Source: Vulcanimicrobiaceae bacterium
GTDB lineage: Bacteria; Vulcanimicrobiota; Vulcanimicrobiia; Vulcanimicrobiales; Vulcanimicrobiaceae
DNA: 64,000 bases
Assembly (NCBI GenBank): GCA_036559125.1
Contig: DATBTT010000048.1
Span: 2,454 to 66,453, forward strand
Direction of reading: 5' to 3'
Below, one piece after another: positions 14,719 through 58,157 of the stretch. Under the pieces are notes generated by a model, which saw only the letters and a list, made by a program, of their open reading frames with translations, had not been told where the DNA came from and did no database searches. Made by a program: the position numbers and the translations under genes. The first letter of the stretch is position 1; each line of letters starts with the position of its first letter.

Positions 14719-15666
14719 CTAGCGCAAAATTAGACGCCAACGCTTCGTTTCACCGGCAGCAGCAACCAGCGGTTTCAGCTTAGCGCACGCCTTTTGCAGG
14801 CGTTCATAATATGCCGGGACCACGGAGGCGCGCTCGATTAGGCGAGCCAGCGCGGCCGTGTCGCCGGCCGGATAAAGTCCGGGATAGGTGCGGCCGAGGA
14901 TGCCGGTATTTCCGGGAATGCGCGAGGCGAGGATCGGGACGCCGCACGCAATCGCCTCGCACAGAACGTTCGCACCGCCTTCCAAACGCGACGAGTGCAC
15001 GAGCAAGTCGCTGCGCAGAAGCAAACGGCGGGCGCCCGCGCGGCTCAACTCGCCGAGAAAACGATACCGCGGGTTTCGACGCGTTTCGCGCTCCACGGCG
15101 CCGCCGTACTGCGGCGCTAAAATACCGCCTGCTTGGCGAAGTCGGATCGGAAGCGCGCCGTCGAGCGTCCGTAACGCGTACGCCGCTCGCATCGGATCTT
15201 TCTCCCAGCGCAGATGCCCGAGAACGCAGATATCGAACGTTGCCCTCGCCCCGCGACGCGCCGGGCGCCCAGCCGGCGCGGATTGAACGATCGCCGTCGT
15301 TTTCGCGCGTAACGCAGGAGGCAACTCGCGCGCGCCCTCGGGCTGCAGCGTTACCAGCGCGTCCGCGGCGTTCATCGCGCGCACTGCGAGCGCGCTCGTA
15401 TGCATGTCGCGATACAGATCGGTTCCGGTGAGAACGAGAACGATCTGGCGGTCCGGATAGCGTTTGCGAAAGGCGAGTACGCTGCGGGCGCTCTTACGCG
15501 CGTGCAACGCTACCAGGCATTGGGCGGGTTCACCCGTATATGCCTCGAGGATTCGCGTCCGCCAACCCAAAGAGCGGAAGATGCCCAGGTAGCGATCTGC
15601 CGTCACGGAGTTGCCGAGCGTCGATCCGCGCGGCGCGGGGGAAACGATGATCATAGAAGCCGGCAT
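14719..15666 (-). CDS. senB: SenB-like glycosyltransferase (putative selenosugar synthase)
   Basis: GT-B fold. The N-terminus IIVSPAPRGSTLGNSVTADR and C-terminus SSRLEGGANVLCEAIACGVPILASRIPGNTGILG resemble GT4. The call rests mainly on context: it is divergent from an EgtB-like gene and lies next to selD. Start is ambiguous: 15666 (MPASMIIV, GAGG 4 nt upstream) or 15654. The track start at 15768 is unlikely. Confidence 0.65.
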   Translation of the reverse strand: MPASMIIVSPAPRGSTLGNSVTADRYLGIFRSLGWRTRILEAYTGEPAQCLVALHARKSARSVLAFRKRYPDRQIVLVLTGTDLYRDMHTSALAVRAMNAADALVTLQPEGARELPPALRAKTTAIVQSAPAGRPARRGARATFDICVLGHLRWEKDPMRAAYALRTLDGALPIRLRQAGGILAPQYGGAVERETRRNPRYRFLGELSRAGARRLLLRSDLLVHSSRLEGGANVLCEAIACGVPILASRIPGNTGILGRTYPGLYPAGDTAALARLIERASVVPAYYERLQKACAKLKPLVAAAGETKRWRLILR

Positions 15667-16924
15667 GACACCTCTGGCTGAGTTAGCCGACGCGCGCCGG
15701 CGGACCCTTGCGTTGACCGAGGATCTGCACGACGAGCAGCTTCGCGTGCCGCTGCTCGAAACGATCAATCCCTTCGTGTGGGAACTGGGTCACATTGCGT
15801 ATTTCGCCGAGTTCTGGACGTTGCGGAATTTGTTTGGGCGCGATCCGATCGTCGCGAACGCCGATCTACTCTACGATTCTGCAACCGTCGAGCACGACGA
15901 CCGCTGGAACCTGCCGCTCCCGTCACGCGTGCAGACACTGGCTTTCATGCAGCGCCAGTTTGACGAGCTCTCGGCGAATGCAGGCGCCGCGATCGCAACC
16001 GATGCCGGCCGGTATTTTCTCCAACTCATCCTATTTCACGAAGACATGCACGGCGAAGCGCTCGTCTACACGCGACAAACGCTCGCATATCCGGCACCGG
16101 CTCTCACTGCAGACATCCCGCCCCCGGGCGGTGCGCTCCCCGGCGACGCACGGATTCGCGGCGGCCGCTACACAATTGGAGCAGACCCAGCGGACGGCTT
16201 CGCGTTTGACAACGAGAAATGGGCGCATGAAGTTGAACTCGGCGATTTCGCTATCGCGCGCGCGGCGGTAACCAACGCGCAATTCGCGGCGTTCGTCGAA
16301 GACGGCGGCTATGCGAATCGGCATTTCTGGGCGGACGACGGATGGGCGTGGCGCGAGAACGCGCGCGCGGAGCACCCGATATATTGGGAGGCCGCCAATG
16401 GCGGGCGCGGCACGGCTGCGTTCCGCCGGCGTCAATTCGACCGGCTCGCCGTCCTGCGAGATCATGAGCCCGTCAGCCACGTAAACTATTTCGAGGCGCA
16501 GGCGTATTGCGCGTGGGCGGGCCGGCGGCTGCCGACCGAAGCCGAATGGGAGGTTGCCGCGACCGGCTCTCAGCGGCGCCGTTATCCATGGGGCGACGAA
16601 CCTCCGCAGGCGGGGCACGCGAATTTGGATGGAGCGATCGGAACCACGTGCGACGTCGGCGCGTTCGAAACCGGAGAGAGCCCGACGGGCTGCCGGCAGA
16701 TGCTGGGTAACGTGTGGGAATGGACGCAAACTACGTTCGAACCCTATCCCGGTTTCACGATAGATCCGTACGCAGAGTACTCGGCTCCGTGGTTCGGTTC
16801 GCACAAAGTTTTGCGCGGAGGCGCATGGTCCACTCGACGTCGACTGATCACGACCCGTTGGCGAAACTTCTACCGGCCGCATCGGCGCGACATCATAACG
16901 GGCTTTCGCACGGTAAAGATATAA
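15647..16924 (+). CDS. senA: SenA/EgtB-family synthase (DinB-like domain plus FGE-sulfatase domain), putative selenoneine synthase
   Basis: DinB-like N-terminus (INPFVWELGHIAYFAEFW). C-terminal FGE-sulfatase-type motifs (PVSHVNYFEAQAYCAWAGRRLPTEAEWE, GNVWEWT, RGGAWST). Start is 15647 (GGGGGA RBS) or 15665. The track start is 15611. Confidence 0.7.
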   Translation: MIIEAGMTPLAELADARRRTLALTEDLHDEQLRVPLLETINPFVWELGHIAYFAEFWTLRNLFGRDPIVANADLLYDSATVEHDDRWNLPLPSRVQTLAFMQRQFDELSANAGAAIATDAGRYFLQLILFHEDMHGEALVYTRQTLAYPAPALTADIPPPGGALPGDARIRGGRYTIGADPADGFAFDNEKWAHEVELGDFAIARAAVTNAQFAAFVEDGGYANRHFWADDGWAWRENARAEHPIYWEAANGGRGTAAFRRRQFDRLAVLRDHEPVSHVNYFEAQAYCAWAGRRLPTEAEWEVAATGSQRRRYPWGDEPPQAGHANLDGAIGTTCDVGAFETGESPTGCRQMLGNVWEWTQTTFEPYPGFTIDPYAEYSAPWFGSHKVLRGGAWSTRRRLITTRWRNFYRPHRRDIITGFRTVKI

Positions 16925-16933
16925 GGAGACTGC

Positions 16934-18031
16934 GTGTCCATTTCGGAGAATGCGTTACTCGATCGCGAAGCGACGCTCAAACGGTTAATAGGCGGAACGC
17001 TCGTTTTTCTGGCGATCGCCGTGGTCGGATTATTTATCGTAAAATGGTGGCCTTATTGGCATAAGGCATTCGTTGCCGCGGCAACGCGTACGATCGGCGC
17101 GTCAATCGTTAGCGGGAAGTCGGTACAGCCGCAAGCCGTCGGAATAGCTGCCGCGTGGAGCTACACGCTCGCGTATTTCAAATCCGTTTGGGAGGCCGTC
17201 GTGCTCGCGCTGGTTCTCGGCGCGTCCATCCAAGTGTTGGTGCCCCGCAAATGGTTGCTCGGCCTGATCGGCGGAAACGGGTATCGTTCGACGGCAATAG
17301 CCGGAGCCGCATCCATGGCCGGAATGATGTGTACGTGCTGCACGGCACCGATCGTCGTCGGAATGCGGCGGCAACGCGTGGGAATCGGCGGCGCGATGGC
17401 CTTTTTTCTCGGAAATCCGGTTCTCAACCCAGCGACGGTCGTCTTCATTGGGCTCGTCCTTGGCTGGCCGTTTGCGATAGTCCGCATCGTATTCGGCCTC
17501 GCGCTCGTATTCGTCGTCGCGTGGCTGGCCAGCCGCGTCGTTTCGCGCGACGCGGCGGCAAACGATCCGAAATACGTCGTGCCGCTGGCGGCGATCGACG
17601 ATCCGAAACGCACCGCTGCCGGCATCGCTGCCTCGTGGTTGAAGGAACTGTGGGTCGAGATCTACACGTTGCTGCCCGGCTATATCGCAATTGTCTTCGT
17701 GCTGGGCGGCCTACGCGCGTGGCTATTTCCGCCGGGGCTGACGATCCACGCATCCGGACTCGGCGCGATCGCGCTGCTGTCGGCGATCGGCACGCTTTTC
17801 GTTATTCCGACCGCCGGCGAAATCCCGATAACGCAAACACTCTTGCACGCGGGCATGGGCGTCGGTCCGGCGACCGCGTTGCTGATGACGTTACCGGCGA
17901 TTAGCGCGCCCTCCTTGTTTATCGTACGCAAGGTCTTTCCGCCGCGCGCGCTAATCGTAGCGGTCGGCGGCATTTTTATCGTCGGCATTCTCGCCGGAGT
18001 CGGGGCGATGTTGATGATGCACGCTGCGTAG
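16934..18031 (+). CDS. polytopic permease with Cys cluster (COG0701/ArsP-like predicted permease)
   Basis: 365 aa, about 8-10 hydrophobic helices, motif GMMCTCCTAPIVVGM. GTG start preceded by AAGGAGA, 9 nt after the senA stop. Confidence 0.7.
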   Translation: MSISENALLDREATLKRLIGGTLVFLAIAVVGLFIVKWWPYWHKAFVAAATRTIGASIVSGKSVQPQAVGIAAAWSYTLAYFKSVWEAVVLALVLGASIQVLVPRKWLLGLIGGNGYRSTAIAGAASMAGMMCTCCTAPIVVGMRRQRVGIGGAMAFFLGNPVLNPATVVFIGLVLGWPFAIVRIVFGLALVFVVAWLASRVVSRDAAANDPKYVVPLAAIDDPKRTAAGIAASWLKELWVEIYTLLPGYIAIVFVLGGLRAWLFPPGLTIHASGLGAIALLSAIGTLFVIPTAGEIPITQTLLHAGMGVGPATALLMTLPAISAPSLFIVRKVFPPRALIVAVGGIFIVGILAGVGAMLMMHAA

Positions 18032-18038
18032 GAGCAGG

Positions 18039-19076
18039 ATGACAAAAGCGGATATCTTACGGCTGACGCATCTTTCGAGTTGCGCGGGTTGAGCTTCCAA
18101 GATGGACGCAAGCGTCCTCGCGCAAGTCTTGCGCGATTTGCCGCCGATTGACGATCCGAACGTCATGGTCGGCACGAGCACGGCCGACGACGCCGGTGTG
18201 TATCGTTTTTCCGACGACACGGCGCTGGTGCAGACGGTCGATTTTTTTACGCCGATCGTCGACGATCCGCGTACGTACGGTCGAATAGCCGCCGCCAACG
18301 CGCTATCGGATATTTATGCGATGGGCGCTCGACCGCTTACTGCGCTCGCGATTGCCGCGTTTCCCGAGTCGCTGGACGCGGCAATTCTCGGGGAGATTCT
18401 TGCGGGCGGCTCGGAGAAGGCGAAAGAAGCCGGCATCAGCATCATCGGCGGGCATACGATCAAGGACGACGAGCCGAAATACGGACTCGCGGTTACGGGT
18501 ATCGTGCATCCCGATCGCGTCGTTCGCAACGACACGGGGCGCGCGGGCGACGCGCTGGTCTTGACGAAACCGCTTGGAACGGGGATACTCACGACCGCGC
18601 GCCGCAGCGATGCCATTGGTGAAGAAGAGCTTGCCGAAGCTATTGCATCGATGGAACGTTTGAATCGTGCGGCGGGCGAAGCGATGGTCGAACGCGGCGC
18701 CCATGCGGCGACCGACATCACCGGCTTCGGTTTGATCGGACATTTACGCGAGATGGCCACCGGGGGCCTGGGCGCGCAAATCGTCGCGAACGACGTTCCG
18801 CTACTCGATCGCGCGTTGAACCTCGCCGAAGCCGGCAACGTTCCCGGCGGCACGCGCAAGAATCTCAACGATGCACTGAGCGCCGGCGTGCTGTTTGACG
18901 CATCCGTGTCGCAAGCGCTGCGATTGGTGCTGTGCGACGCGCAAACATCGGGCGGATTGCTGATCGCATTGGGAGCGGACGGCGCCCGGGCGCTGCTCGA
19001 CGACCTAGCCGCGAGGTCGATCGACGCCCGCGTCATCGGCTCGTTAACCGGCGACGGTCGCGTCGAGGTGCGATAG
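18039..19076 (+). CDS. selD: selenide, water dikinase (selenophosphate synthetase), Sec-containing form; in-frame TGA at 18090-18092 read as selenocysteine
   Basis: The track ORF (18102-19076) lacks the catalytic N-terminus. ATG 18039 (AGGAG upstream) reads MTKADILRLTHLSSCAG-U-ASKMDASVLAQVL in the same frame. This aligns with E. coli HGAGCGCKISPKVLETIL, placing U at Cys17 with Lys20 conserved. Body: DDAGVYRF, VDFFTPIVDDP, AANALSDIYAMGA. Confidence 0.85.
18104..18135 (+). other. candidate bacterial SECIS (two adjacent hairpins downstream of the selD UGA)
   Basis: Hairpin 1: ggacgc-aa-gcgtcc (18104-18117), starting 11 nt after the UGA. Hairpin 2: cgcgcaa-gtc-ttgcgcg (18119-18135), with G and U in the apical loop. 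Folded by eye only. Confidence 0.45.
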
Positions 19077-44619: not shown

Positions 44620-46050
44620 TTATCTCGTAATCACGTACGGCGTCATCACGAAGACGACGTCGGTTTCGTCGCGCTGATATCGGACGTCGCGAAAGAGCCG
44701 GCCGATGATGGGCAACTTTCCGAGCAGCGGCACTTCATCGACGTTTCGCTGTTCTTGATGGCGCAACAGACCGCCCATGATGATGCTTTCGCCCGGCTGC
44801 GTCACTAATTCCGTCGAGAGTTTGCTTTCCTTGAGCGCCGGTATGACGAACCCATTGATGTTGACGCCGTCTTGAAAATCCAGATCCGAAACCTCCGGCG
44901 CGATCTTCGTTTGCACGTTGCCGTTTCCGAGCAGGACCGGCGTGATGTCGAGTTTGACCCCAAACTCCTTATACGTGATGCTGACCTGGCCCAGGCCCGT
45001 TGAAAACGGAATCGGAATCTCGCCGCCGACCAAAAAATTAGCTTCGTTGCCGGGCATCGTTACGAGATTAGGCGCGGAGAGAACTCGCGCGTGCCCCTGT
45101 TGTACCAGCAAGTCGATTTGCGGGGCAAGCACGGTCGTTCGGAAGAACGGCCCGAGGCGAAACGGATCGAGCGGGAATTTGTTTTGTTCGACGATCGGGA
45201 AACTCGGTGCGCCAAGTACGACATGTCCGGTTGAGTCCAAGTTGCCGGCATTGAGTTTGACTCCGAGTTGCGAAAGCGCAGTCCGGTCGACTTCGAGCAC
45301 GTTGACGCGAACGTCGATCTGGGTTTCGAGTTCGGTGCCGAGACGGTCGATGAGCTGGCCGGTGGCCGACAGATAGCGACCCGAGAGCGCCCGAACGTGG
45401 TCGAGCACTTCTTGCCGGGTTGCCTCGTCGCGCACGCGGCCGCTTACGATCACGTTGCCTTTGCCGTCGGGGTCCACGCGAATGTCCTGCGCGCCCGGAA
45501 GGCCGGCGACCTGATCCTGAAGATCGCCTAGCGGGTGAGCGACCAGAACCGCATTTACGATGGTGTACTTCTCGGCTTTCGCGACTGCGGCAAAACGCCC
45601 CAGGATGTCGCCGATCGCTTGAAAGTGCGCGCCGTCGGAGACGGTTCCGCGCACGACGATCGTGTGTCCGAAGTCTTGTACCTGCACTTCATTCGAATCG
45701 ATGGTGGAGCGCAACATTTGTGCGACGATATCGACGCTGCTCGACGTGACCGTGAGATCTATGGCGTGTTGCATCGGGGCCTTCGCACTACCGTTCCAGA
45801 TCAGAATCGTCGTTCGACCGGGAGCCTTCGCCGTAAGGAGCAACTGCGAGGTGCCGATGGGCACCACGGTCACGACGTTTTTATCGCCGACCGCGACGCG
45901 CTGAAGGCGCGTATACGTCAACACGGATGTGTGCCCGGTTTGCAACGTCAGGAGGTGCGTGCTCGCGTCGGCCCCCGCCGTGCCCGTGGAGGCGAAGGCG
46001 CTGAAAAGTACGACTGCAACGGCGCGAAGCATATGGGCGAAGTGTTTCAC
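44620..46050 (-). CDS. cpaC: CpaC/RcpA-type secretin
   Basis: Signal peptide, pilus N-terminal domain (LTLQTGHTSVLTY..VAVGDKNVVTVVP), BON-like region, and secretin core (LSAPNLVTMPGNEANFLVGGEIPIP...ELVTQPGESIIMGGLL...VPLLGKLPIIGRLFR). Confidence 0.85.
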   Translation of the reverse strand: MKHFAHMLRAVAVVLFSAFASTGTAGADASTHLLTLQTGHTSVLTYTRLQRVAVGDKNVVTVVPIGTSQLLLTAKAPGRTTILIWNGSAKAPMQHAIDLTVTSSSVDIVAQMLRSTIDSNEVQVQDFGHTIVVRGTVSDGAHFQAIGDILGRFAAVAKAEKYTIVNAVLVAHPLGDLQDQVAGLPGAQDIRVDPDGKGNVIVSGRVRDEATRQEVLDHVRALSGRYLSATGQLIDRLGTELETQIDVRVNVLEVDRTALSQLGVKLNAGNLDSTGHVVLGAPSFPIVEQNKFPLDPFRLGPFFRTTVLAPQIDLLVQQGHARVLSAPNLVTMPGNEANFLVGGEIPIPFSTGLGQVSITYKEFGVKLDITPVLLGNGNVQTKIAPEVSDLDFQDGVNINGFVIPALKESKLSTELVTQPGESIIMGGLLRHQEQRNVDEVPLLGKLPIIGRLFRDVRYQRDETDVVFVMTPYVITR

Positions 46051-46078
46051 AGGCGCAATTATGACACAGGCGCTCGGC

Positions 46079-46126
46079 GTTAACGCGTTAACGGTTTTTG
46101 ACGTTAAGTTAACTTTGGTTTTAACC
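46079..46126. promoter_or_regulatory. AT-rich TTAAC repeat array in the divergent tad control region, with a possible promoter
   Basis: gTTAACgcgTTAACggtttttgacgTTAAgTTAACtttggtTTTAACc. Two of the units are GTTAAC palindromes. TTGACG (46098-46103), 18-nt spacer, TAACCT could serve as -35/-10 for the plus-strand operon. Confidence 0.4.
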
Positions 46127-46197
46127 TATTGCGCTGCTTTCGAGCCACGTGCAGTATGGAGCCATCGGCCCGCATCGGGCGGATTCTCGAAGCTGGG

Positions 46198-46665
46198 ATG
46201 GAGGGTTTACCAATCCTGAAGCAAGTTGCGTTGGTCGCACTGGTTGGAGTTGCCGGTCTGGTAGCTCCGGCGGTTGCAGCTGAGCACGGCAAACCCGTGG
46301 TCGTTTCCACCACCCCGACCACGGGTGCCCTCTCACTGCACGTCGAGCCGGCGACCGGAGCGGAGGCCGTGCGCGTAAACTGCGCCGGACCTGCAAATGC
46401 GCCGGTCACCATCACGCTCTTCGCGACGCTGTCGTCGGACATTCCGACGGTGGTCGTTAGCCGCCACGACTTCACGATCGATCGCAGCGGGCAGCTTTCG
46501 ACGACGATTTCGATCGCGTCGGACTTTGTTCGCGGCAGCATACTCACGGTACGCGTGACTTCGCTCGATACCGTCGTACCCGCGCAAGCTTCACTGTTGG
46601 TAGGCGCTCCAAACCCACACGTTTCGGTTCCGCTCGAACAGCTACCGGCCATCTTCACGCATTAA
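46198..46665 (+). CDS. secreted hypothetical protein, first gene of the plus-strand flp operon
   Basis: MEGLPILKQVALVALVGVAGLVAPAVAAE is a signal peptide with an AxA site. GC3-rich frame. Preferred over the antisense ORF 46104-46658. Confidence 0.45.
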   Translation: MEGLPILKQVALVALVGVAGLVAPAVAAEHGKPVVVSTTPTTGALSLHVEPATGAEAVRVNCAGPANAPVTITLFATLSSDIPTVVVSRHDFTIDRSGQLSTTISIASDFVRGSILTVRVTSLDTVVPAQASLLVGAPNPHVSVPLEQLPAIFTH

Positions 46666-46677
46666 GGAGATTCACAC

Positions 46678-46839
46678 ATGCTCGCTACGTTACAAACATT
46701 CATCCGCGACGACGAAGGCGCCACCATGGTGGAATACGGCCTCATGGTCGCCCTGGTCGCCATCGCGTGCATCATCGCCGTAACCGCGCTCGGTACCAAA
46801 CTAAGCGCGCTGTTCACCAGCACCTCCAACGACGTTTAA
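46678..46839 (+). CDS. flp: Flp-family type IVb pilin (copy 1), 53 aa; not in the ORF track (no listed ORF is shorter than 60 aa)
   Basis: AAGGAGA RBS at 46664-46670. MLATLQTFIRDDEGATMVEYGLMVALVAIACIIAVTALGTKLSALFTSTSNDV shows a textbook Flp motif (G/ATMVEYGL) followed by a hydrophobic helix. Confidence 0.8.
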   Translation: MLATLQTFIRDDEGATMVEYGLMVALVAIACIIAVTALGTKLSALFTSTSNDV

Positions 46840-46861
46840 GTCGAAGGAATGCATGCGACTT

Positions 46862-46895
46862 GACGGATACCGCCAGTCCACAGGCGGTATCCGTC
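46862..46895 (+). terminator. strong stem-loop after flp (attenuator or partial terminator; no U-tract)
   Basis: Perfect 13-bp stem gacggataccgcc / ggcggtatccgtc with 8-nt loop agtccaca. It starts 23 nt after the flp stop and ends 20 nt before cpaA. Confidence 0.5.
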
Positions 46896-46914
46896 GACAA
46901 GCTGCTCGCGCACA

Positions 46915-47448
46915 ATGCCGATGCAACACGCGATCGAATTTCTAGCCTTAGCCGCTTGCGGCGCGGGCGCGATTACCGACATCCGTTCGAAGCGCATCCC
47001 GAACGCTTTGACGTTGAGCGCGGCGGTCGTGGCGCTCGCCCTACATGCGATGCTGGGTCCCGTCTCTTTGGCAAAGGCGGCGCTCGTTATGGTCGTGGTG
47101 CTGGCCGCCGGGATAGCGGTTTTTCGCCTCAAGCTTATAGGCGGAGGCGATGTCAAGCTCGTCGCGGCGATTGCCGGGGCGTTCGGATTCCCGGACGCGG
47201 TACCGTTCGTGCTGTACACGATGGTTGCCGGAGGGGTCCTCGCGATCGCATATGCGTTATCGCGCGGAACGCTTAGGCAAACCGTTCAAAATACACTAGT
47301 GGCAACGCAGCCGTTGCTGTATCGCCGCCTACCGGTTGCGCTTCCGGCGACTACCGAAAAGATGCCGTACGGACTGGCGATCTTTATCGGTGCGAGCTTC
47401 GTCGTTCTCTCCCACGCCTATGCGCCGTTTCTTCGCTTCCCGGTCTAA
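46915..47448 (+). CDS. cpaA: A24-family prepilin peptidase (CpaA/TadV-type)
   Basis: AITDIRSKRIPNALTL (first Asp) and LIGGGDVKLVAAIAGAFG (GxGD-type second Asp). Confidence 0.8.
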   Translation: MPMQHAIEFLALAACGAGAITDIRSKRIPNALTLSAAVVALALHAMLGPVSLAKAALVMVVVLAAGIAVFRLKLIGGGDVKLVAAIAGAFGFPDAVPFVLYTMVAGGVLAIAYALSRGTLRQTVQNTLVATQPLLYRRLPVALPATTEKMPYGLAIFIGASFVVLSHAYAPFLRFPV

Positions 47449-47457
47449 GGGTCACCC

Positions 47458-48324
47458 ATGAATACGCGCCGTACCACGATCGTCGTTGCCATTTTGCTGG
47501 CAATCGGAACCGGTTGGCTGACGCTGACGTACCTACGTTCGTTCCAGCAGGCCAATGCGCCGGCAAACGAGTTGCGCCGCGTCTTCGTCGCGACTCAAGA
47601 CATACCGGCGCGCACTCAGATCAATCCCGTCATGTTCCGAAGCGAAACGCGCCCCGTAAAACAGGTCGATCCCGACGCTATCGGCGATCCCATGCGGATG
47701 GCGGGGAGCATTTCGCTCATCACGATCCCCGCGGGCTCGGTGCTCACGGAATCAAAAGTGGGTCATCCCGTCGACGTCGGACTTTCCGTTCGGCTCAAGC
47801 CCGGCTTGCGCGCCGTATCGATCGCCGTCGATCGCGTCAAAGGAGTTTCGGGTTTGCTCGAACCGGGCGACCGCGTCGACGTCATCGCAAGCGTTCCCAA
47901 GGAAGCCGGCAAGGGCCCGCGCGCGGTTACGATCATACGCGGCGCGACCGTTCTTGCGGTAGGCGTTACGCTGGAAACGGCGCAAGCGACGCCCTCGCCG
48001 GAGGAACAAAGCGCGCAAACCGTGACGCTCGGCGTAACCCCGAAACAAGCCGACCTGCTCACCGTCGCCGACAACAACACGTCCCTTCGACTCGCGCTGC
48101 GCTCGCCGCGCGAGAAATTGCGTTCCGAACCGGTCGAAGCGCTGGATCTCAACGGTCTAGCCGACCCAAGCATGGGGGGCGGCCGGTTTTCCGCTCCGGT
48201 TACTCCCCCGGTGCTTGCCGCAGCTCCCGCCGGCGCGCCGTTTCGTGCCGATCCGCCGCCGGCGCCGGCTCGGCGTGCGTCGAGCGGAATCGTCGTCATT
48301 GAAGGGTCCGGAGTGGAGCAATGA
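47458..48324 (+). CDS. cpaB: Flp pilus assembly protein CpaB (SAF plus RcpC domains)
   Basis: N-terminal TM, VFVATQDIPARTQINPVMF (SAF), LKPGLRAVSIAVDRVKGVSGLLEPGDRVDVIASV. Confidence 0.8.
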   Translation: MNTRRTTIVVAILLAIGTGWLTLTYLRSFQQANAPANELRRVFVATQDIPARTQINPVMFRSETRPVKQVDPDAIGDPMRMAGSISLITIPAGSVLTESKVGHPVDVGLSVRLKPGLRAVSIAVDRVKGVSGLLEPGDRVDVIASVPKEAGKGPRAVTIIRGATVLAVGVTLETAQATPSPEEQSAQTVTLGVTPKQADLLTVADNNTSLRLALRSPREKLRSEPVEALDLNGLADPSMGGGRFSAPVTPPVLAAAPAGAPFRADPPPAPARRASSGIVVIEGSGVEQ

Positions 48325-50405
48325 AATCTGCGGCGTTCGTCTTCATCGGCGCTAAAGGCGGCGTCGGGACGAGCACGCTCGCATACGAGCTCGCGAAGTC
48401 GCTAACGAATAAGGGGAATGCCGCTCTCGTCGATGCGGACTTTTCGGGAAGGCGCAGCGTTGCGGTGCTGAGCGGCAAGACGCGCGAACTCGATGCTTCT
48501 CGCAGCGAACGCGAAGTTGCGGTCCATCGTTCGGGCGGCCTGACGACGATCGAACTGACCGACAGTTACGACATGGCCCTGGCGCTCAACCTCGACGCAG
48601 TGGATCAACTGGCCGACGAGTTGGCGGAAGGGTACGCGCTGATTTACGTCGATGCGCCGCAGCCGTTTTCGGCCGCCATCCGTAGCTTCGTCTGTCGAGC
48701 CTATCGGTTCCTAATCGTTGTCGAGCCGGACCTTCTCGGCCTGACCGGCGCTCGCGCAATGCTCAACGAACTGGTTCGGTTCGGCGTGCCGAAAACGCGA
48801 ATCGTGGCCGTCATGGATTGGCACGTGGGCAAGCCGGAAATATCGAAGAACGAAGTAGAGAAAATCCTCGGGACCGACGTGGTTGCGGAGATTCCCCCAA
48901 AAAATGACCGCCAGTTCCACCGCGCGGTCGAGGCTCTCAATGCGTATCTGCTGGCGGTGCCCGAGGCCGGTCCCATTGAATCGCTCAAACCTTCCGTGCG
49001 CGCTCCTCTGAGCGAACGGCGCCGTGAGAATCGGCGGGTGTTCTCCCTAAACGATCCGCTTATGCCTGCCAATCAATCGCATGCGGTGCGAGACGTCGAT
49101 GCAGGTGAGGCCGCGCGCAACGCAATCAAGACGCAAATTCACGACGAACTGGGAAAGCGTCTCGATTTCGTGCAGGCCAGTCACGTGCACAACGACGCAC
49201 AAAAACTGGCGGAACTTCGCGTTAAGATCGACGAACTCACGCGGTCGATCATTGCCGAGCGCTCGGACGTAGGCAGCCCCGAGGACTCTACGCGATTACG
49301 CCGCGAAGTTATCGATGAGGCCCTCGGCTTCGGACCCCTCGAGGATCTGCTTAGCGACGAATCGATCAGTGAAATAATGGTTAACGGGCCGAACAAAGTG
49401 TACGTGGAGCGCAAAGGCAAGATCGAGCTTACCTCCAAGCAGTTTACCGATAATCGGCAATTGCGGTTGGTGATCGATCGCATCATCGCGCCCATCGGAC
49501 GGCGCATCGACGAATCGGTGCCCATGGTCGATGCACGCCTTGCGGACGGGTCGCGCGTCAACGCCATCATCGAACCGCTCTCGCTTAAGGGACCGACGCT
49601 CACGATCCGTCGATTCGGCACGAAGCGTCTGCAAGTCGCGGACCTGTTGCGCCTTGGAGCTTTGAACGAGCCCATGGTTCACTTCTTGCGCGCGTGCATT
49701 CAAAGCCGCATGAACATTGTCGTAAGCGGAGGCACGGGATCGGGAAAGACGACGCTTCTAAACATCCTTTCGGGCTTCATACCGCCGGACGAACGCATCG
49801 TCACTATCGAGGATGCGGCGGAATTGTTGCTCGATCAGCCGCACGTCGTGTCGCTCGAATCTCGCCCGGCGAACATCGAAGACCGCGGCGAGGTCAAAAT
49901 CCGGGATTTGGTGCGCAATTCGCTGCGCATGCGCCCCGACCGCATCGTGGTTGGAGAGTGCCGCGGAGCCGAAGCGTTGGATATGCTTCAGGCGATGAAT
50001 ACGGGTCACGACGGCTCGCTTACGACGCTTCATGCCAATTCCGCGCGCGACGCCATGTCGCGCATTGAGACGCTCGTAATGATGGCCGGTTTCGATCTTC
50101 CGGTGCGCGCGATTCGGGAGCAAATAGCGAGCGCCGTCGACCTCGTCGTCCAATCGGCCCGCCTGCGTGACGGCAGCCGCAAGATCGTGAGCATTTGCGA
50201 AATCGTGGGCATGGAGGGCGACGTCGTTACCATGCAAGAGGTCGTAAAATATACGATGCACGGGGTCAACGAGGACGGTAGCGTTATCGGGAAGTTCGAG
50301 TACACGGGCGTGCAACCGCACTCGCTGCGCCGCTTCGACGAATCCGGTACGTCCTTCGACACGCGGGAACTGTCCGAAATGCCTTCGGCCGGGGCGCTCT
50401 GGTAG
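48321..50405 (+). CDS. fusion of a TadZ/CpaE-like ParA/MinD-type domain (N-terminal) to the CpaF/TadA secretion ATPase (C-terminal)
   Basis: Residues 1 to about 230: [20 protein letters not shown] (deviant Walker A with Thr in place of the second Lys), [20 protein letters not shown]. Residues from about 330 to the end: [72 protein letters not shown]. One uninterrupted 694-aa ORF. Confidence 0.85.
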
Positions 50406-51268
50406 TGACGACCGGCATATTTCCGCTTCTGATCGCCTTCGGAGTCATTGCCTTTGTCGGCGTGATGGCCTTCGCATTTGCAAAACCACTCGCAGAACGG
50501 GGCGTCCTTTTTGTAAAGCGCTTTTCCGGACACCTCGAAATTGCCGGAATCGAACGAAAACCCGAGGAGATCGTCGCGATGACTGCGGGTGGAGGCGTCG
50601 CGCTGTGGGCTTTGATCGCAGTCATTCTCCGGCCGGGATTTGTGGTTGCGGCCATGCTCTTGCCACTTTTGGTCGGACTCGCGTGTGGTGGTTTCTACGC
50701 CTACGTTACGCTTAAGAGCGGCAAGCGCAAAGAAGCATTCTTGACGCAACTTGAGGTCGCTCTCCGGCTTATTTCCAGTGGCCTGCGCATCGGCTTGAGT
50801 TTACGCCAGTCGATGAATTTAGTATCGGAGGAGCTTCTCGATCCGGCGCGCCACGAATTTCAGCGAATGATCGGACAGACGAACATCGGCATCACCCCGT
50901 ACGATGCGCTGGACGATCTGGCCGAGCGACTACCGAGCGGCGAGACCTTGATGCTTGCCCGGGTCGTGCGGATTCAATCGCAGACCGGTGGTAATCTTGC
51001 GACTATTCTCGAGCAGCTTGCCGGAACGATAAAAGAGCGTCGCCGCATCGCTCGCAAAGTCAGTGCGCTAACGGCCGAGGGCCGTGCAGGCGCGCTGGTT
51101 CTCGAGGCGTTACCGATAGGCGTGGGCGGCTTCTTGATGCTAACTCAACACGACATGGCCGTTGCCTTACTGACAACGCTGATCGGCCACGCGACGCTGG
51201 TTATGGTTGGCGTTCTCGAAATAATCGCCATATTCTGGCTGAGTCAAATGCTGAAGGTACGGGCGTGA
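50405..51268 (+). CDS. tadB: TadB-like type II secretion system F-family membrane protein
   Basis: GTG start overlapping the previous stop by 1 nt. T2SSF-like LRLISSGLRIGLSLRQSM...LPSGETLMLARVVRIQSQTGGNLATILEQLAGTIKERRRI. Confidence 0.75.
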   Translation: MTTGIFPLLIAFGVIAFVGVMAFAFAKPLAERGVLFVKRFSGHLEIAGIERKPEEIVAMTAGGGVALWALIAVILRPGFVVAAMLLPLLVGLACGGFYAYVTLKSGKRKEAFLTQLEVALRLISSGLRIGLSLRQSMNLVSEELLDPARHEFQRMIGQTNIGITPYDALDDLAERLPSGETLMLARVVRIQSQTGGNLATILEQLAGTIKERRRIARKVSALTAEGRAGALVLEALPIGVGGFLMLTQHDMAVALLTTLIGHATLVMVGVLEIIAIFWLSQMLKVRA

Positions 51269-52131
51269 TGGGTAGCGTGGGGACGTTAGTCTTCGCGATC
51301 CCGCTCGTAGGCGGCATCTCGATATTTCTCTTTGCGATGTCGCTCATTCCGCAAAAAAGTCCGCTAACGCTTCAACTCGAGGAAATCAAAGGCCGGAACC
51401 TGACCGGACCGCAGGTCAATCGCTTCGCCGTCATCGAGAAGATCTTCGGCGACGAAGGCCGGGGGCGCGTGCAAAAGCAGTTGATAGAAGCGGGTTGGTA
51501 TACGGTGACTCCGGCGCAGATCGGCGCGCGCATGGCGGCCGGCGCAATCGTCGGAATAGCCGCCGGGGTGCTGTTGATGGTTCTGCTGCACAAGTTCAAC
51601 CCGTTGTTCCTCGCGATTGCGGCGATTTTGGCCGCCGTTGGAACCTACGCGCCGATGGTGTTGATGACGCGCGCCATCGATTCACGTAAACTGTCCGTGC
51701 AAAAAGCTTTGCCCGATTTTCTGGATATGGTCGCCACGACGGTTCAGGCAGGCCTATCGATGAATGCCGCGCTCGCATACGCGACGCAGGCGGCTCCGGG
51801 AGCGCTCGGTGAGGAAGTCAAGGAAACGCTCTCGCAGATGCGGCTGGGGCGCAGCCGCGTGGACGCCCTGCGCGCGATGTCCGCTCGCGTCAATCAAGAG
51901 GAACTGAATTCGACGATATCCGCAATCACGCAGGCGGAAAAGCTCGGAGCGAACATTTCGAAAGTCCTCTGCGAACTGGCCGAAGAAGTGCGCAATCGCC
52001 GCATCATGCTGGTGGAAGAGCAAGCCGCGAAGCTTCCGATCAAAATGATCTTCCCGATGGCGTTTTGCCTATTGCCGGCGCTCTTCGCCATCATCTTCGG
52101 TGCCGTCGGCGCGAGAATGGTGCATCACTAG
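51265..52131 (+). CDS. tadC: TadC-like type II secretion system F-family membrane protein
   Basis: 4-nt overlap with tadB. ALPDFLDMVATTVQAGLSMNAAL...TQAEKLGANISKVLCELAEEVRNRR. Confidence 0.75.
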   Translation: MMGSVGTLVFAIPLVGGISIFLFAMSLIPQKSPLTLQLEEIKGRNLTGPQVNRFAVIEKIFGDEGRGRVQKQLIEAGWYTVTPAQIGARMAAGAIVGIAAGVLLMVLLHKFNPLFLAIAAILAAVGTYAPMVLMTRAIDSRKLSVQKALPDFLDMVATTVQAGLSMNAALAYATQAAPGALGEEVKETLSQMRLGRSRVDALRAMSARVNQEELNSTISAITQAEKLGANISKVLCELAEEVRNRRIMLVEEQAAKLPIKMIFPMAFCLLPALFAIIFGAVGARMVHH

Positions 52132-52742
52132 TGCTCTTTGCAAATATGTTTTTTACGGGCCTCCTCTACGGTACGCTGGCCTTTGTGGGAGCCGCCTGGA
52201 GTGCGAGGATGTGCGCGAACCTGCCGCTTCTTGAAGACGGACCGCAGGCTGCGGTGCCGCCGGTGAAAGCGCTGGTCGCCGGAGCGGCGGCGATCGGTAT
52301 TCTCATCGCGCTGCATCGCGCGCCGCCGCAACAAACGCTCTTGCTGGGCATCGTGGTTTTGGCGCTTGCAGCAATTTGGTGTAGCGATACCTCCCACGGC
52401 ATCGTTCCCGACGTGTTTACCCTCGGACCCTTGGCCGCAATCCTACTGGTCGCGGTGCTGATGCAGCAGTGGTGGATCGTTCTCTCGGCTGCGGTGCCGT
52501 TCGTGCCGTTTGCGATAGCCGCTTTGCTTTCCAAAGGTCGCGGCATGGGCTGGGGCGACGTTAAGCTGGTGGCGCTAGGCGGGGCGCTGCTCGGAATGCA
52601 ACTGTCGATCGTTGCGTTCATGGCTGCGTGCATCGCTGCGGTCGTCGTCAGCCGCTTTCAGCGCCGCGCAACCGGCCCAATCGCTTTCGCACCCTATCTT
52701 TGCGCCGCAATCGGCCTGTCATTGGGAGTAGTTGGTAGGTAA
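52131..52742 (+). CDS. second A24-family prepilin peptidase (PilD-core-like)
   Basis: GTG 52131 overlaps the tadC stop (ATG alternative at 52146). CSDTSHGIVPDVFTLGP and GRGMGWGDVKLVALGGALLG carry the two catalytic Asp motifs. Confidence 0.65.
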   Translation: MLFANMFFTGLLYGTLAFVGAAWSARMCANLPLLEDGPQAAVPPVKALVAGAAAIGILIALHRAPPQQTLLLGIVVLALAAIWCSDTSHGIVPDVFTLGPLAAILLVAVLMQQWWIVLSAAVPFVPFAIAALLSKGRGMGWGDVKLVALGGALLGMQLSIVAFMAACIAAVVVSRFQRRATGPIAFAPYLCAAIGLSLGVVGR

Positions 52743-56228: not shown

Positions 56229-58157
56229 ATGCCGTCGCCCGAATCGTTGACCGGATACATGGTACTCGAACGCATCGACTCGCCCGCCGACCTCAAGTCG
56301 CTCACCCGTCCCGAAATGGACCTGCTCGCACAAGAGATCCGCGACTTACTCGTGCGCACGTGCGCGAAAAACGGCGGTCATCTGGCGCCGAATCTTGGCG
56401 TCGTCGAGTTGACGCTCGCCCTCGAGCGCGTCCTCAACCTGCCCCAAGACCGGATCGTCTGGGACGTCAGTCACCAGACCTACGTCCATAAGATTTTGAC
56501 CGGCCGCCGGAATCGCTTCGATACCATCCGCCAGGGCGGGGGTCTTTCGGGTTTCGCGATGCGAAGCGAATCGGAATACGACGTTTTCGGTGCGGGCCAC
56601 GCGAGCACGAGCGTGTCCGCAGCGCTGGGCATGGCCCAGGCGCGCGATTTGACTCACGGTAAGGAAACCATCGTCGCGGTTATCGGCGACGGCGCGCTGA
56701 CCGGGGGCCTCGCGTACGAAGCGCTCAACAATGCCGGAGCGCTCAAGACGAATTTTATCGTAGTTCTCAACGACAACGAGATGTCCATTGCGCCGAACGT
56801 CGGCGCCATCTCGTCGTATCTCTCCGTGCTGCGCAGCAAGCCGCTCGCGACCTTCGCGCGCCAGACCGGCAAGCGCGTTTTGGACCGCATTCCCTTCGGT
56901 GGCGCCGTCAAAAAGGGTATCGAAGCCGCCGAGATCGGTACGATGCATTTCGTGGCACCGGCGGAGAAGACGGCGGTAATCTTCGAAGAGTTGGGGTTCC
57001 GCTACATCGGACCGGTCGACGGTCACAACTACGATTCGCTGGTCGACGCAATCGAAACGGCCAAACGGTTCGCAGGGCCGGTGCTCGTGCACGTGCGCAC
57101 CGTCAAAGGCAAAGGGTACAACCCGGCCGAGAACGACTCGCGCACGTTTCACGGCGTGAGCACACCATTCGAAATTGAAAACGGCAACCTGCAAAAGAAA
57201 CCGAATGCGCTGCCGACGTTTTCCGACGCATTCGGCGATGCGATGTGCGCGGTCGCTCAGCGCGACCGGCGCATCATCGGCATTACCGCCGCCATGCCCG
57301 ACGGCACCAAGCTCTCGAAGTTCGCAAAGCAATTTCCGGATCGCTATTTCGACGTCGGCATCGCCGAGGCGCACGCGGTGTGCTTTGCCGCCGGCGCGGC
57401 GACGTCGGGGATGCGTCCGATCTGCGCCATCTATTCCACGTTCTTGCAGCGGGCGTACGATCAGATCGTCCACGACGTGTGCGTCCAGAATCTCCCGGTC
57501 GTCTTCTGCATGGATCGCGCCGGTTTGGTGGGCGATGACGGACCGACGCACATGGGCCTCTATGACATCGCTTACCTGCGCACGCTGCCCAACATGACGT
57601 TGATGGCGCCGCGCAACGAGGACGAACTGCTACCCATGCTCGAGCACGCGCTGCGACTCGACGGTCCGGCGGCCATCCGCTACCCGCGCGGATCGACCAG
57701 CGGCCGCCATCGCGACGAACCGGCCCCAATCGAACGCGGCCGCGCCGAAGTCCTGCGCCGTGGGTGCGAGGTCGCGATCCTCGCGTACGGCAACGCCGTC
57801 GACATCGCTCTGGATGCCTACGATCTGCTCGCCGCAAAGAACCCGAACGGACCCCTGCCCACCGTGGTCAACGCCCGCTTCGCCAAACCGCTGGACGAAT
57901 CGCTGCTGTTGGAACTCGCGGGGGGGCATTCACACGTTCTTACTTTAGAAGAAGCATCGCTCGCAGGCGGCTTCGGCTCGGCGGTCGTAGAGTTCGTCTC
58001 GGACCGAGGGCTTGGCGTCACGGTGGAACGCATCGGGGTGCCGAGCGTCATCGTACAGCACGACCGGCCGGAAAAGCAGCGGGCCCAATTCGGCCTTACC
58101 GCCGAGCACGTGGCAGGCCGAGCTTCCGCTGTCCTTGTGGCCCCGGTTCGCTCGTGA
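56229..58157 (+). CDS. dxs: 1-deoxy-D-xylulose-5-phosphate synthase
   Basis: GGHLAPNLGVVELTLAL, VWDVSHQTYVHKILTGRR, GAGHASTS, IGDGALTGG, AEAHAV, DRAGLVGDDGPTH. Confidence 0.95.
   Translation: MPSPESLTGYMVLERIDSPADLKSLTRPEMDLLAQEIRDLLVRTCAKNGGHLAPNLGVVELTLALERVLNLPQDRIVWDVSHQTYVHKILTGRRNRFDTIRQGGGLSGFAMRSESEYDVFGAGHASTSVSAALGMAQARDLTHGKETIVAVIGDGALTGGLAYEALNNAGALKTNFIVVLNDNEMSIAPNVGAISSYLSVLRSKPLATFARQTGKRVLDRIPFGGAVKKGIEAAEIGTMHFVAPAEKTAVIFEELGFRYIGPVDGHNYDSLVDAIETAKRFAGPVLVHVRTVKGKGYNPAENDSRTFHGVSTPFEIENGNLQKKPNALPTFSDAFGDAMCAVAQRDRRIIGITAAMPDGTKLSKFAKQFPDRYFDVGIAEAHAVCFAAGAATSGMRPICAIYSTFLQRAYDQIVHDVCVQNLPVVFCMDRAGLVGDDGPTHMGLYDIAYLRTLPNMTLMAPRNEDELLPMLEHALRLDGPAAIRYPRGSTSGRHRDEPAPIERGRAEVLRRGCEVAILAYGNAVDIALDAYDLLAAKNPNGPLPTVVNARFAKPLDESLLLELAGGHSHVLTLEEASLAGGFGSAVVEFVSDRGLGVTVERIGVPSVIVQHDRPEKQRAQFGLTAEHVAGRASAVLVAPVRS

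What the first reader, a model, noticed from the sequence alone, without database searches (positions are those of the whole stretch)
18039..18135. selD is a selenoprotein: an in-frame UGA at the catalytic position, missed by the ORF track
The ORF track starts selD at ATG 18102. That removes the Gly-rich catalytic loop that every SelD needs.

Reading upstream in the same frame gives ATG 18039 (AGGAG 5 nt upstream), 17 sense codons, TGA (18090-18092), then GCT TCC AAG ATG. The result is MTKADILRLTHLSSCAG-U-ASKMDASVLAQVL. Against E. coli HGAGCGCKISPKVLETIL, the UGA falls exactly on Cys17 and the essential Lys20 is conserved. Haemophilus-type SelD enzymes carry Sec at this site.

Two hairpins follow. 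The first is 18104-18117, starting 11 nt after the UGA. The second is 18119-18135, a 7-bp stem with G and U in the loop. Both are plausible SECIS elements.

Consequence: the enzyme that activates selenium for the sen pathway itself needs Sec-insertion machinery and selenophosphate, which makes a positive-feedback arrangement.
Basis: partly seen in the sequence, partly recalled or inferred. Interest (0 to 1): 0.7.

Follow-up and report, generated by a model that had tools for sequence, protein, structure and literature searches.

The report
SelD gene with selenocysteine UGA
The selenophosphate synthetase gene in this selenoneine cluster starts 63 bases before the ORF call and reads an in-frame UGA as selenocysteine, which is real but is a common, well-documented feature of this enzyme family.

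Summary
ATG 18039, 17 sense codons, TGA 18090-18092 and the called ATG 18102 lie in one frame. The extended protein is a full SelD, and the UGA aligns with E. coli Cys17, with Lys three residues later.

Close Eremiobacterota relatives keep the same start, the TGA and the upstream peptide, with mostly synonymous changes (210 against 39). Cys-type relatives have a near-identical N-terminus with TGC or TGT at that codon.

It is 81% paired in 104 Sec-type genes against 49% in 50 Cys-type genes, shows compensatory changes, and meets every published bSECIS criterion. The first hairpin fails two of those criteria.

The gene is the last in a senB / senA / ArsP-type permease / selD cluster, an order that recurs in relatives.

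Not shown: selA, selB and tRNA-Sec are absent from the window, and the rest of the genome could not be searched.

SelD is the second most widespread bacterial selenoprotein family and its SECIS is already described. This is therefore a correct re-annotation and a new member of a known kind, of low interest. The feedback idea is old and untested.

The parts
18030..18034 (+). Shine-Dalgarno-like AGGAG, 4 nt upstream of the ATG; overlaps the permease stop codon TAG (18029-18031)
   Evidence: Read directly from the sequence.
18039..19076 (+). Full selD/senC coding sequence: 345 residues including Sec18, stop TAG 19074-19076. The ORF call 18102-19076 is a 5'-truncated version.
   Evidence: With U replaced by C it scores TIGR00476 SelD 383.5 bits (cut-off 125) from residue 8, and aligns to E. 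coli SelD 3u0o residues 5-335.
18039..18041 (+). True start codon ATG
   Evidence: ATG or GTG sits at the homologous position in the 13 Sec-type loci most similar to the window; more distant clade members (L039, L087, L173) differ in N-terminal length. Conservation collapses immediately upstream.
18090..18092 (+). In-frame UGA = selenocysteine codon (Sec18), homologous to E. coli Cys17
   Evidence: Of 163 related loci, 109 have TGA and 51 have TGC/TGT at this codon.
18099..18101 (+). AAG = Lys21, the Lys of the UxxK motif (E. coli Lys20)
   Evidence: the AA of this codon is invariant in 104 of 104 Sec-type and 50 of 50 Cys-type sequences.
18104..18117 (+). Hairpin 1 (GGACG CAAG CGUCC), probably an accessory or spacer helix and not the SelB-binding element
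   Evidence: -5.8 kcal/mol and no G in the first two loop positions. This register is only 50% paired across the family; the consensus register is 62% paired.
18118..18136 (+). Hairpin 2 = bacterial SECIS apical stem-loop (8 bp, loop GUC at 18126-18128)
   Evidence: -10.6 kcal/mol, 33 nt from the UGA to the loop. 81.3% paired in Sec-type against 49.3% in Cys-type genes, 6 of 8 pairs with compensatory changes. Third codon positions vary at 2 of 7 sites here against 62 of 65 elsewhere.
16934..18031 (+). ArsP_1-family permease (365 aa, motif MMCTCCTAP), 7 nt upstream of selD
   Evidence: PF03773. Adjacency to selD is conserved in relatives.
15611..16924 (+). senA (selenoneine synthase); the JGI gene call starts at 15647
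   Evidence: NF041186 SenA 483.6 bits, cut-off 420.
14719..15768 (-). senB (selenosugar synthase); the JGI gene call is 14719-15654
   Evidence: TIGR04348 SenB 332.2 bits, cut-off 300.

Best explanation
selD (senC) of this Eremiobacterota/Vulcanimicrobiota sen cluster is a selenoprotein gene. Translation starts at ATG 18039, probably coupled to the upstream permease gene. UGA 18090-18092 is decoded as selenocysteine when SelB carrying Sec-tRNA(Sec) binds the stem-loop at 18118-18136 inside the coding sequence. This yields a 345-residue selenophosphate synthetase with Sec in the N-terminal catalytic loop (motif U-A-S-K). The enzyme makes selenophosphate for SenB and SenA (selenoneine) and, necessarily, for Sec synthesis itself. 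Shown here: the frame, the homology, coding conservation, TGA retention, and SECIS conservation with covariation. Inferred: actual Sec insertion, presence of the Sec machinery, and operon coupling.
For: (1) The extended protein is a full-length SelD (TIGR00476 383.5 bits; E. coli 3u0o E = 8e-73). The UGA aligns with Cys17 and the Lys three residues later with Lys20.
(2) Cys-type relatives have a near-identical N-terminus, e.g. P0035 MTKADILRLTHLSACAGCASKVDAS.
(3) In 8 distinct clade sequences, codons 2-17 vary at 14 of 16 third positions but only 4 of 16 second positions, with 210 synonymous and 39 nonsynonymous pairwise differences. All 8 triplets upstream of the start vary at every position.
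(4) TGA is kept in every Sec-type clade member examined, at 58-76% protein identity (L004-L006, L039, L084, L087, L164-L175), and in 109 of 163 related loci.
(5) The region downstream of the codon folds better in Sec-type than in Cys-type genes (shuffle z -1.47 against -0.15, p = 9e-10).
(6) Helix 2 is 81% paired against 49%. The covariation score for the tested two-hairpin structure is 0.300 against 0.173 in shuffles (0 of 500 reach it), with no signal in Cys-type genes.
(7) Helix 2 meets all four published bSECIS criteria (PMC13188914).
(8) Synonymous sites are frozen in helix 2 (Fisher p = 8e-5).
(9) Cys-type close relatives show helix 2 decaying.
(10) TGA ends 13 of 54 predicted genes in the window, so UGA is not reassigned genome-wide.
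(11) selA and/or selB signature motifs lie beside selD in 15 of the 109 TGA-type loci and in 0 of the 51 Cys-type loci fetched.
Against: No selA, selB or tRNA-Sec is present in the 64 kb window or within about 10 kb of selD in the clade loci that were checked. Their presence in this genome or phylum was not demonstrated: the one SelB search returned only Verrucomicrobiota, and no paper links Eremiobacterota to selenoproteins. No Rfam family matched. The 33-nt spacing from the UGA to the loop is near the upper limit of the model (16-37 nt). Two clade members (L173, L084) lack helix 2 and have a different hairpin. There is no experimental evidence of Se incorporation.
Confidence: 0.9

Rival explanations
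1. The UGA is a genuine stop. A 17-residue upstream peptide is made or nothing is, and SelD is translated from ATG 18102 as the 324-residue protein the ORF track shows.
For: Gene callers and public records use this start; about 75 of the 120 closest database proteins begin there. No Sec machinery was seen in the window.
Against: The 324-residue product lacks the Sec/Cys-x-x-Lys loop that aligns with E. coli residues 13-20. The Met at 18102 is an internal K-[MV]-D position, Val or Leu in many homologues. The upstream frame evolves as coding sequence and a SECIS is conserved. The start at 18039 lies 7 nt after the upstream gene, whereas 18102 would leave a 70-nt gap.
Confidence: 0.03
2. The gene is a pseudogene: a recent TGC/TGT to TGA nonsense mutation in a Cys-type selD.
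For: A single base change converts Cys to TGA, and Cys-type relatives exist in the same clade (P0035, P0030).
Against: The TGA is shared by many independent lineages at 58-76% protein identity, with purifying selection on both sides, and by 109 of 163 loci across phyla. The rest of the gene is intact and the sen cluster is conserved.
Confidence: 0.02
3. The UGA is read through without selenocysteine, by near-cognate insertion of Cys or Trp aided by the downstream hairpins, in an organism lacking Sec machinery. This would be analogous to the SPS1-UGA readthrough proposed for Hymenoptera.
For: The Sec machinery was not found. Stem-loops next to a UGA can promote non-Sec readthrough (PMC4561486).
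Against: The hairpin has the specific bacterial SECIS features (G-U at the start of a small loop, set spacing) shared with selD genes that sit next to selA, selB or tRNA-Sec. In the surveyed reference prokaryotic genomes, SelD occurrence generally matched the other selenium-utilization markers and selenoprotein presence, with only a few exceptions (PMC4561486).
Confidence: 0.05

Closest known systems
Sec-type bacterial SelD (e.g. Haemophilus influenzae; Aquifex aeolicus, whose SelD structures 2yye/2zod align from query residue 8)
   Same: Same family, Sec at the same catalytic position in a UxxK motif, and a SECIS hairpin inside the coding sequence just downstream. That the A. aeolicus and H. 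influenzae enzymes are natural Sec forms is from my own knowledge.
   Different: Different phylum (Eremiobacterota) and genomic context (sen cluster plus permease, rather than selA/selB or a stand-alone gene).
E. coli SelD (Cys17/Lys20; PDB 3u0o)
   Same: Colinear alignment over residues 5-335. The loop residues and the DDA, DFFxPIVD, SDIxAMG and TDxTGFG motifs are conserved.
   Different: E. coli has Cys (TGC) where this gene has UGA, and has no SECIS.
SenC of Variovorax paradoxus (sen cluster; Kayrouz and Seyedsayamdost 2022, doi 10.1101/2022.04.13.486033)
   Same: A SelD homologue clustered with SenA and SenB that supplies selenophosphate for selenoneine.
   Different: The V. paradoxus enzyme was produced at high yield in E. 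coli, and the text searched makes no mention of Sec in SenC, so it is presumably Cys-type. Here the gene is Sec-type, and an ArsP-family permease gene sits between senA and selD.
Consensus bacterial SECIS (bSECISearch model as summarised in PMC13188914); E. coli fdhF SECIS
   Same: Small apical loop starting with G-U, an 8-bp upper stem, located within 37 nt of the UGA, and MFE at or below -7.5 kcal/mol. The apical sequence GCAAGUCUUGC resembles fdhF GCAGGUCUGC (the fdhF sequence is from memory).
   Different: The loop lies 33 nt from the UGA, with a second small hairpin filling the spacer. In fdhF the loop G is at +23 (from memory).

Membership tests
SelD / selenophosphate synthetase (TIGR00476) | Whole-protein score above the curated cut-off | tested here: met
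   383.5 bits against a cut-off of 125. NF002098 scores 345.7 against 299.
SelD / selenophosphate synthetase (TIGR00476) | N-terminal catalytic loop with Sec or Cys followed by Lys at +3 (UxxK/CxxK) | tested here: met
   The loop is present only in the extended frame: G-U-A-S-K aligned to E. coli G-C17-G-C-K20. The UxxK motif is listed for this family in PMC13188914.
SelD / selenophosphate synthetase (TIGR00476) | AIRS / AIRS_C domains with conserved Asp motifs | tested here: met
   PF00586 and PF02769. The DDAGVY, DFFTPIVDDP, SDIYAMG and TDITGFG motifs align to E. coli. Their roles in metal and ATP binding are from my own knowledge.
SelD / selenophosphate synthetase (TIGR00476) | ATP-dependent selenophosphate synthesis | not testable with these tools
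   Requires an enzyme assay.
Bacterial selenoprotein gene | In-frame UGA aligned with Cys in homologues, with conserved coding sequence on both sides | tested here: met
Bacterial selenoprotein gene | bSECIS: 3-9 nt apical loop, 4-16 bp stem, G in the first two loop positions, 16-37 nt from the UGA, MFE at or below -7.5 kcal/mol | tested here: met
   Hairpin 18118-18136: loop GUC, 8 bp, 33 nt spacing, -10.6 kcal/mol. Covariation supports it. Hairpin 18104-18117 fails the loop-G and MFE criteria.
Bacterial selenoprotein gene | selA, selB and tRNA-Sec present in the same genome | not testable with these tools
   Absent from the window and from the flanks of the relatives that were checked.
Bacterial selenoprotein gene | Selenium incorporated at the UGA position | not testable with these tools
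   Needs 75Se labelling or mass spectrometry.
sen (selenoneine) gene cluster | SenA (NF041186) and SenB (TIGR04348) above their cut-offs and adjacent to a selD homologue | tested here: met
   SenA 483.6 bits against 420; SenB 332.2 bits against 300. The same gene order occurs in L164, L167 and L169, and a variant order in L174.
sen (selenoneine) gene cluster | Selenoneine production | not testable with these tools
   Needs metabolite analysis. No cultured source organism is known for this window.

The most novel reading that the evidence does not exclude
In this uncultured phylum the selenoneine pathway may be hard-wired to the selenocysteine system. Its dedicated SenC is itself a selenoprotein, and it is translationally coupled to a conserved ArsP-family, vicinal-cysteine permease that may be a so-far unrecognised selenium transporter feeding SelD. 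That would make a four-gene sen variant (senB / senA / permease / Sec-selD) in which small-molecule selenium metabolism depends on, and is gated by, Sec decoding.
Probability: 0.35. Interest if true: 0.35.

Novelty: new member of a known kind. Interest (0 to 1): 0.2.

Why it matters
The main value is annotation. The called 324-residue product lacks the catalytic loop, and the same truncation affects about 75 of the 120 closest public proteins, including NCBI MAG records named SelD. Function predictions and selenoproteome counts for Eremiobacterota are therefore biased. Biologically, a Sec-type SelD implies that this lineage decodes Sec, and that its selenoneine pathway shares and depends on that system. 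This is a modest point, because Sec-type SelD, its SECIS and the autoregulation idea are all established. The conserved permease-selD pairing is the only lead here that might go beyond what is known.

Tried and rejected
- Rfam, at gathering thresholds over the whole window and at E up to 10 over 17900-18300, gave only two chance-level hits.
- ARAGORN found no tRNA in the window.
- A SelB query from L127, meant to locate Eremiobacterota Sec machinery, returned only Verrucomicrobiota. I did not repeat it with SelA, because any single query is swamped by its own lineage.
- A GC3-based scan for other TGA-interrupted genes in the window missed the selD positive control and returned 22 hits that look mostly like shadow frames. 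I rejected it as uninformative.
- Pfam annotation of the 20 largest other ORFs found no selenium-related genes.
- The covariance model also scores Cys-type selD (19-48 bits). It therefore detects coding homology as well as the SECIS and is not a pure SECIS test.
- Literature searches for Eremiobacterota together with selenocysteine or selenoproteins found nothing relevant.

Full report
**Observation.** ATG 18039 is followed by 17 sense codons, TGA at 18090-18092, then GCT TCC AAG and the ATG at 18102 where the mechanical ORF list starts selD. The next in-frame stop upstream is at 18015-18017, and no other start codon lies between it and 18039. AGGAG (18030-18034) is 4 nt from the ATG and overlaps the stop codon of the upstream gene (TAGGAG). 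selD therefore begins 7 nt after that gene ends, whereas a start at 18102 would leave a 70-nt gap.

**What the gene is.** With U replaced by C, the 345-residue product scores 383.5 bits on TIGR00476 (SelD, cut-off 125), matching from residue 8. It aligns colinearly with E. coli SelD (3u0o, E = 8e-73) from E. coli residue 5. The UGA falls on Cys17 and the Lys three residues later on Lys20.

The neighbouring genes are SenB (TIGR04348, 332 bits against a cut-off of 300), SenA (NF041186, 484 against 420) and an ArsP_1-family permease. This SelD is therefore the SenC of a selenoneine cluster. Identical genes occur on three JGI metagenome contigs. The closest genomes are Vulcanimicrobiota/Eremiobacterota MAGs.

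**Is the upstream frame coding?**
- Among the 120 closest database proteins, about 75 start at the same internal Met or later. The full-length ones carry Cys at the UGA position within a near-identical N-terminus, for example P0035 MTKADILRLTHLSACAGCASKVDAS.
- DNA of clade relatives (L004-L006, L084, L164-L172, L174) shows ATG or GTG at the homologous start, the peptide TKADILRLTHLSSCAG, and an invariant GGT TGA.
- In eight distinct sequences, codons 2-17 vary at 14 of 16 third positions but only 4 of 16 second positions, with 210 synonymous and 39 nonsynonymous pairwise differences. The eight triplets before the start vary at every position.
- Across 163 fetched loci, 109 have TGA and 51 have TGC or TGT at this codon. 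Among the 80 species-representative genomes the split is 46 to 34.

A pseudogene or a true stop codon is not compatible with this pattern. UGA is also not reassigned genome-wide, because TGA terminates 13 of the 54 predicted genes in the window.

**SECIS.** The 57 nt after the codon fold more stably in 105 Sec-type segments than in 50 Cys-type segments: -19.8 against -14.7 kcal/mol, shuffle z -1.47 against -0.15, Mann-Whitney p = 9e-10. The alignments are ungapped, so column 1 equals window position 18090.

Helix 2 (columns 29-36 with 40-47, i.e. 18118-18125 with 18129-18136):

| Measure | Sec-type genes | Cys-type genes |
|---|---|---|
| Cells paired in helix 2 | 81.3% | 49.3% |
| Helix 2 pairs with compensatory changes | 6 of 8 (pair 33-43: GC 44, UA 16, CG 11, AU 5) | no signal |
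| Covariation score, both hairpins together | 0.300 | 0.182 |
| Shuffled mean; shuffles reaching the observed score | 0.173; 0 of 500 | 0.163; 40 of 500 |
| Slid-partner controls | at most 0.136 | – |

Loop position U38 is at least 90% conserved. Within the clade, third codon positions in helix 2 vary at 2 of 7 sites, against 62 of 65 in the rest of the gene (Fisher p = 8e-5).

Against the published bSECIS model (3-9 nt loop, 4-16 bp stem, G in the first two loop positions, 16-37 nt spacing, MFE at or below -7.5 kcal/mol; PMC13188914), the two hairpins compare as follows:

| Criterion | Hairpin 1 (18104-18117) | Hairpin 2 (18118-18136) |
|---|---|---|
| Stem | 5 bp | 8 bp |
| Spacing from the UGA to the loop | 16 nt | 33 nt |
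| MFE | -5.8 kcal/mol: fails | -10.6 kcal/mol: passes |

Hairpin 1 is also out of register with the family consensus GGUCC-NNN-GGACC (50% paired against 62%). It may act as a spacer helix.

Two Cys-type close relatives that keep the AQVLR or AQILR peptide show early decay of the element. L176 has an uncompensated U.C mismatch and folds at only -6.5 kcal/mol. L177 has lost the loop G (GUC to AUC). More distant Cys-type relatives have lost the helix altogether. This is a small sample and only suggestive.

A covariance model built without any Eremiobacterota sequence finds one hit in the window, at 18090-18149 (51.8 bits). It also scores Cys-type genes at 19-48 bits, so part of its signal is coding homology.

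**Sec machinery.** This is the gap in the evidence. The window has no tRNA and no SelA or SelB signature, although the same motifs detect selA and selB in 15 other loci. It has no selenium-related gene among its 20 largest other ORFs. The clade loci checked, about 10 kb on each side, also have none.

There is indirect support. All 15 loci with selA or selB beside selD are TGA-type, and none of the 51 Cys-type loci has them. The literature also reports that SelD occurrence in prokaryotes generally matches the other selenium-utilization markers and selenoprotein presence, with only a few exceptions (PMC4561486).

**Mechanism.** The most likely mechanism is standard bacterial Sec insertion. SelB carrying GTP and Sec-tRNA(Sec) binds the 18118-18136 stem-loop as the ribosome reaches UGA 18090, placing Sec18 in the flexible N-terminal loop of SelD. 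The frame, the homology and the RNA conservation are shown here. The insertion itself is inferred. The feedback consequence (SelD needs selenophosphate to be made) follows logically. It has long been discussed for Sec-type SelD/SPS2 (my own knowledge), and nothing here tests it.

**Comparison with what is known, and novelty.**
- SelD is described as the second most widespread prokaryotic selenoprotein family, with motif UxxK (PMC13188914).
- In Mariotti et al. 2015, 19% of prokaryotic SelD genes encode Sec, 'always in the same position', and the bSECIS of Sec-type SelD genes was recovered by RNAz (PMC4561486).
- The sen cluster and SenC are known (doi 10.1101/2022.04.13.486033). That text and the SenC engineering paper (PMC11929427) do not mention a Sec-type SenC.

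The combination of a sen cluster with a Sec-type SelD, in an uncultured phylum, may therefore be unreported. It recurs in relatives (L164, L167, L169, L174). This makes the finding a new member of a known kind.

**Verdict.** The finding is correct and worth a re-annotation, but ordinary. Interest is 0.2.

Noticed in passing
window 16934-18031 (+); also L164, L167, L169, L170, L174, L011, L034, L056, L091: An ArsP_1 (PF03773) permease with a vicinal-cysteine motif (MMCTCCTAP) ends 7 nt before the selD start. The permease-selD pairing is kept in Eremiobacterota relatives with and without sen genes. A 43-47% identical homologue lies divergently next to Cys-type selD in the L011, L034, L056 and L091 loci (L011 Paenibacillus, L034 Paenibacillaceae, L056 Terrilactibacillus, L091 unnamed metagenome contig). 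It may be a selenium transporter. No curated family names it; the best match is SaoE at 48 bits against a cut-off of 325.
   Followed up: partly
window, all predicted genes: Stop-codon usage is rich in TAG and poor in TGA for a 62% GC sequence. In 54 predicted genes the counts are TAG 25, TAA 16, TGA 13. In 26 family-supported genes they are TAG 13, TAA 9, TGA 4.
   Followed up: partly
database proteins P0001-P0120: About 75 of the 120 closest SelD proteins in public collections are truncated at or after the internal Met. These include NCBI MAG records named SelD (P0024, P0036, P0087). The mis-annotation is therefore systematic for this clade.
   Followed up: partly
L176 107-166 and L177 10058-10117: Two Cys-type SelD genes in close relatives still carry most of helix 2 but with a defect: a U.C mismatch in one and loop GUC changed to AUC in the other. 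This looks like recent Sec-to-Cys conversion with a decaying SECIS.
   Followed up: partly
L173 9977-10036 and L084 49-108: Two Sec-type clade members with AQVLGG or AQVLAG lack helix 2. Instead they have a GCGAG-CGUG-CUCGC hairpin at columns 19-32, whose loop has G at position 2 and lies about 20 nt from the UGA. This may be an alternative SECIS.
   Followed up: no
L174 7632-12105: A variant sen arrangement: senB(-), senA, then Sec-type selD directly, with the ArsP-family gene downstream on the opposite strand.
   Followed up: no
L173 8619-9779: In a relative without sen genes, selD is divergently adjacent to an Aminotran_5 gene (cysteine desulfurase / selenocysteine lyase type). This is a known kind of selenium-delivery partner.
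   Followed up: no
L164 395-483, L165 735-823, L167 1672-1761: A tRNA-Ser (anticodon UGA) gene lies a few kb from the sen cluster on the senB side in three relatives. It is not a tRNA-Sec.
   Followed up: no
window 44620-52742: The window also holds a Tad/Flp-type pilus block, with secretin (44620-46050, minus strand) and a T2SSE ATPase (48321-50405). DXS lies at 56229-58157. These are unrelated to the finding.
   Followed up: no
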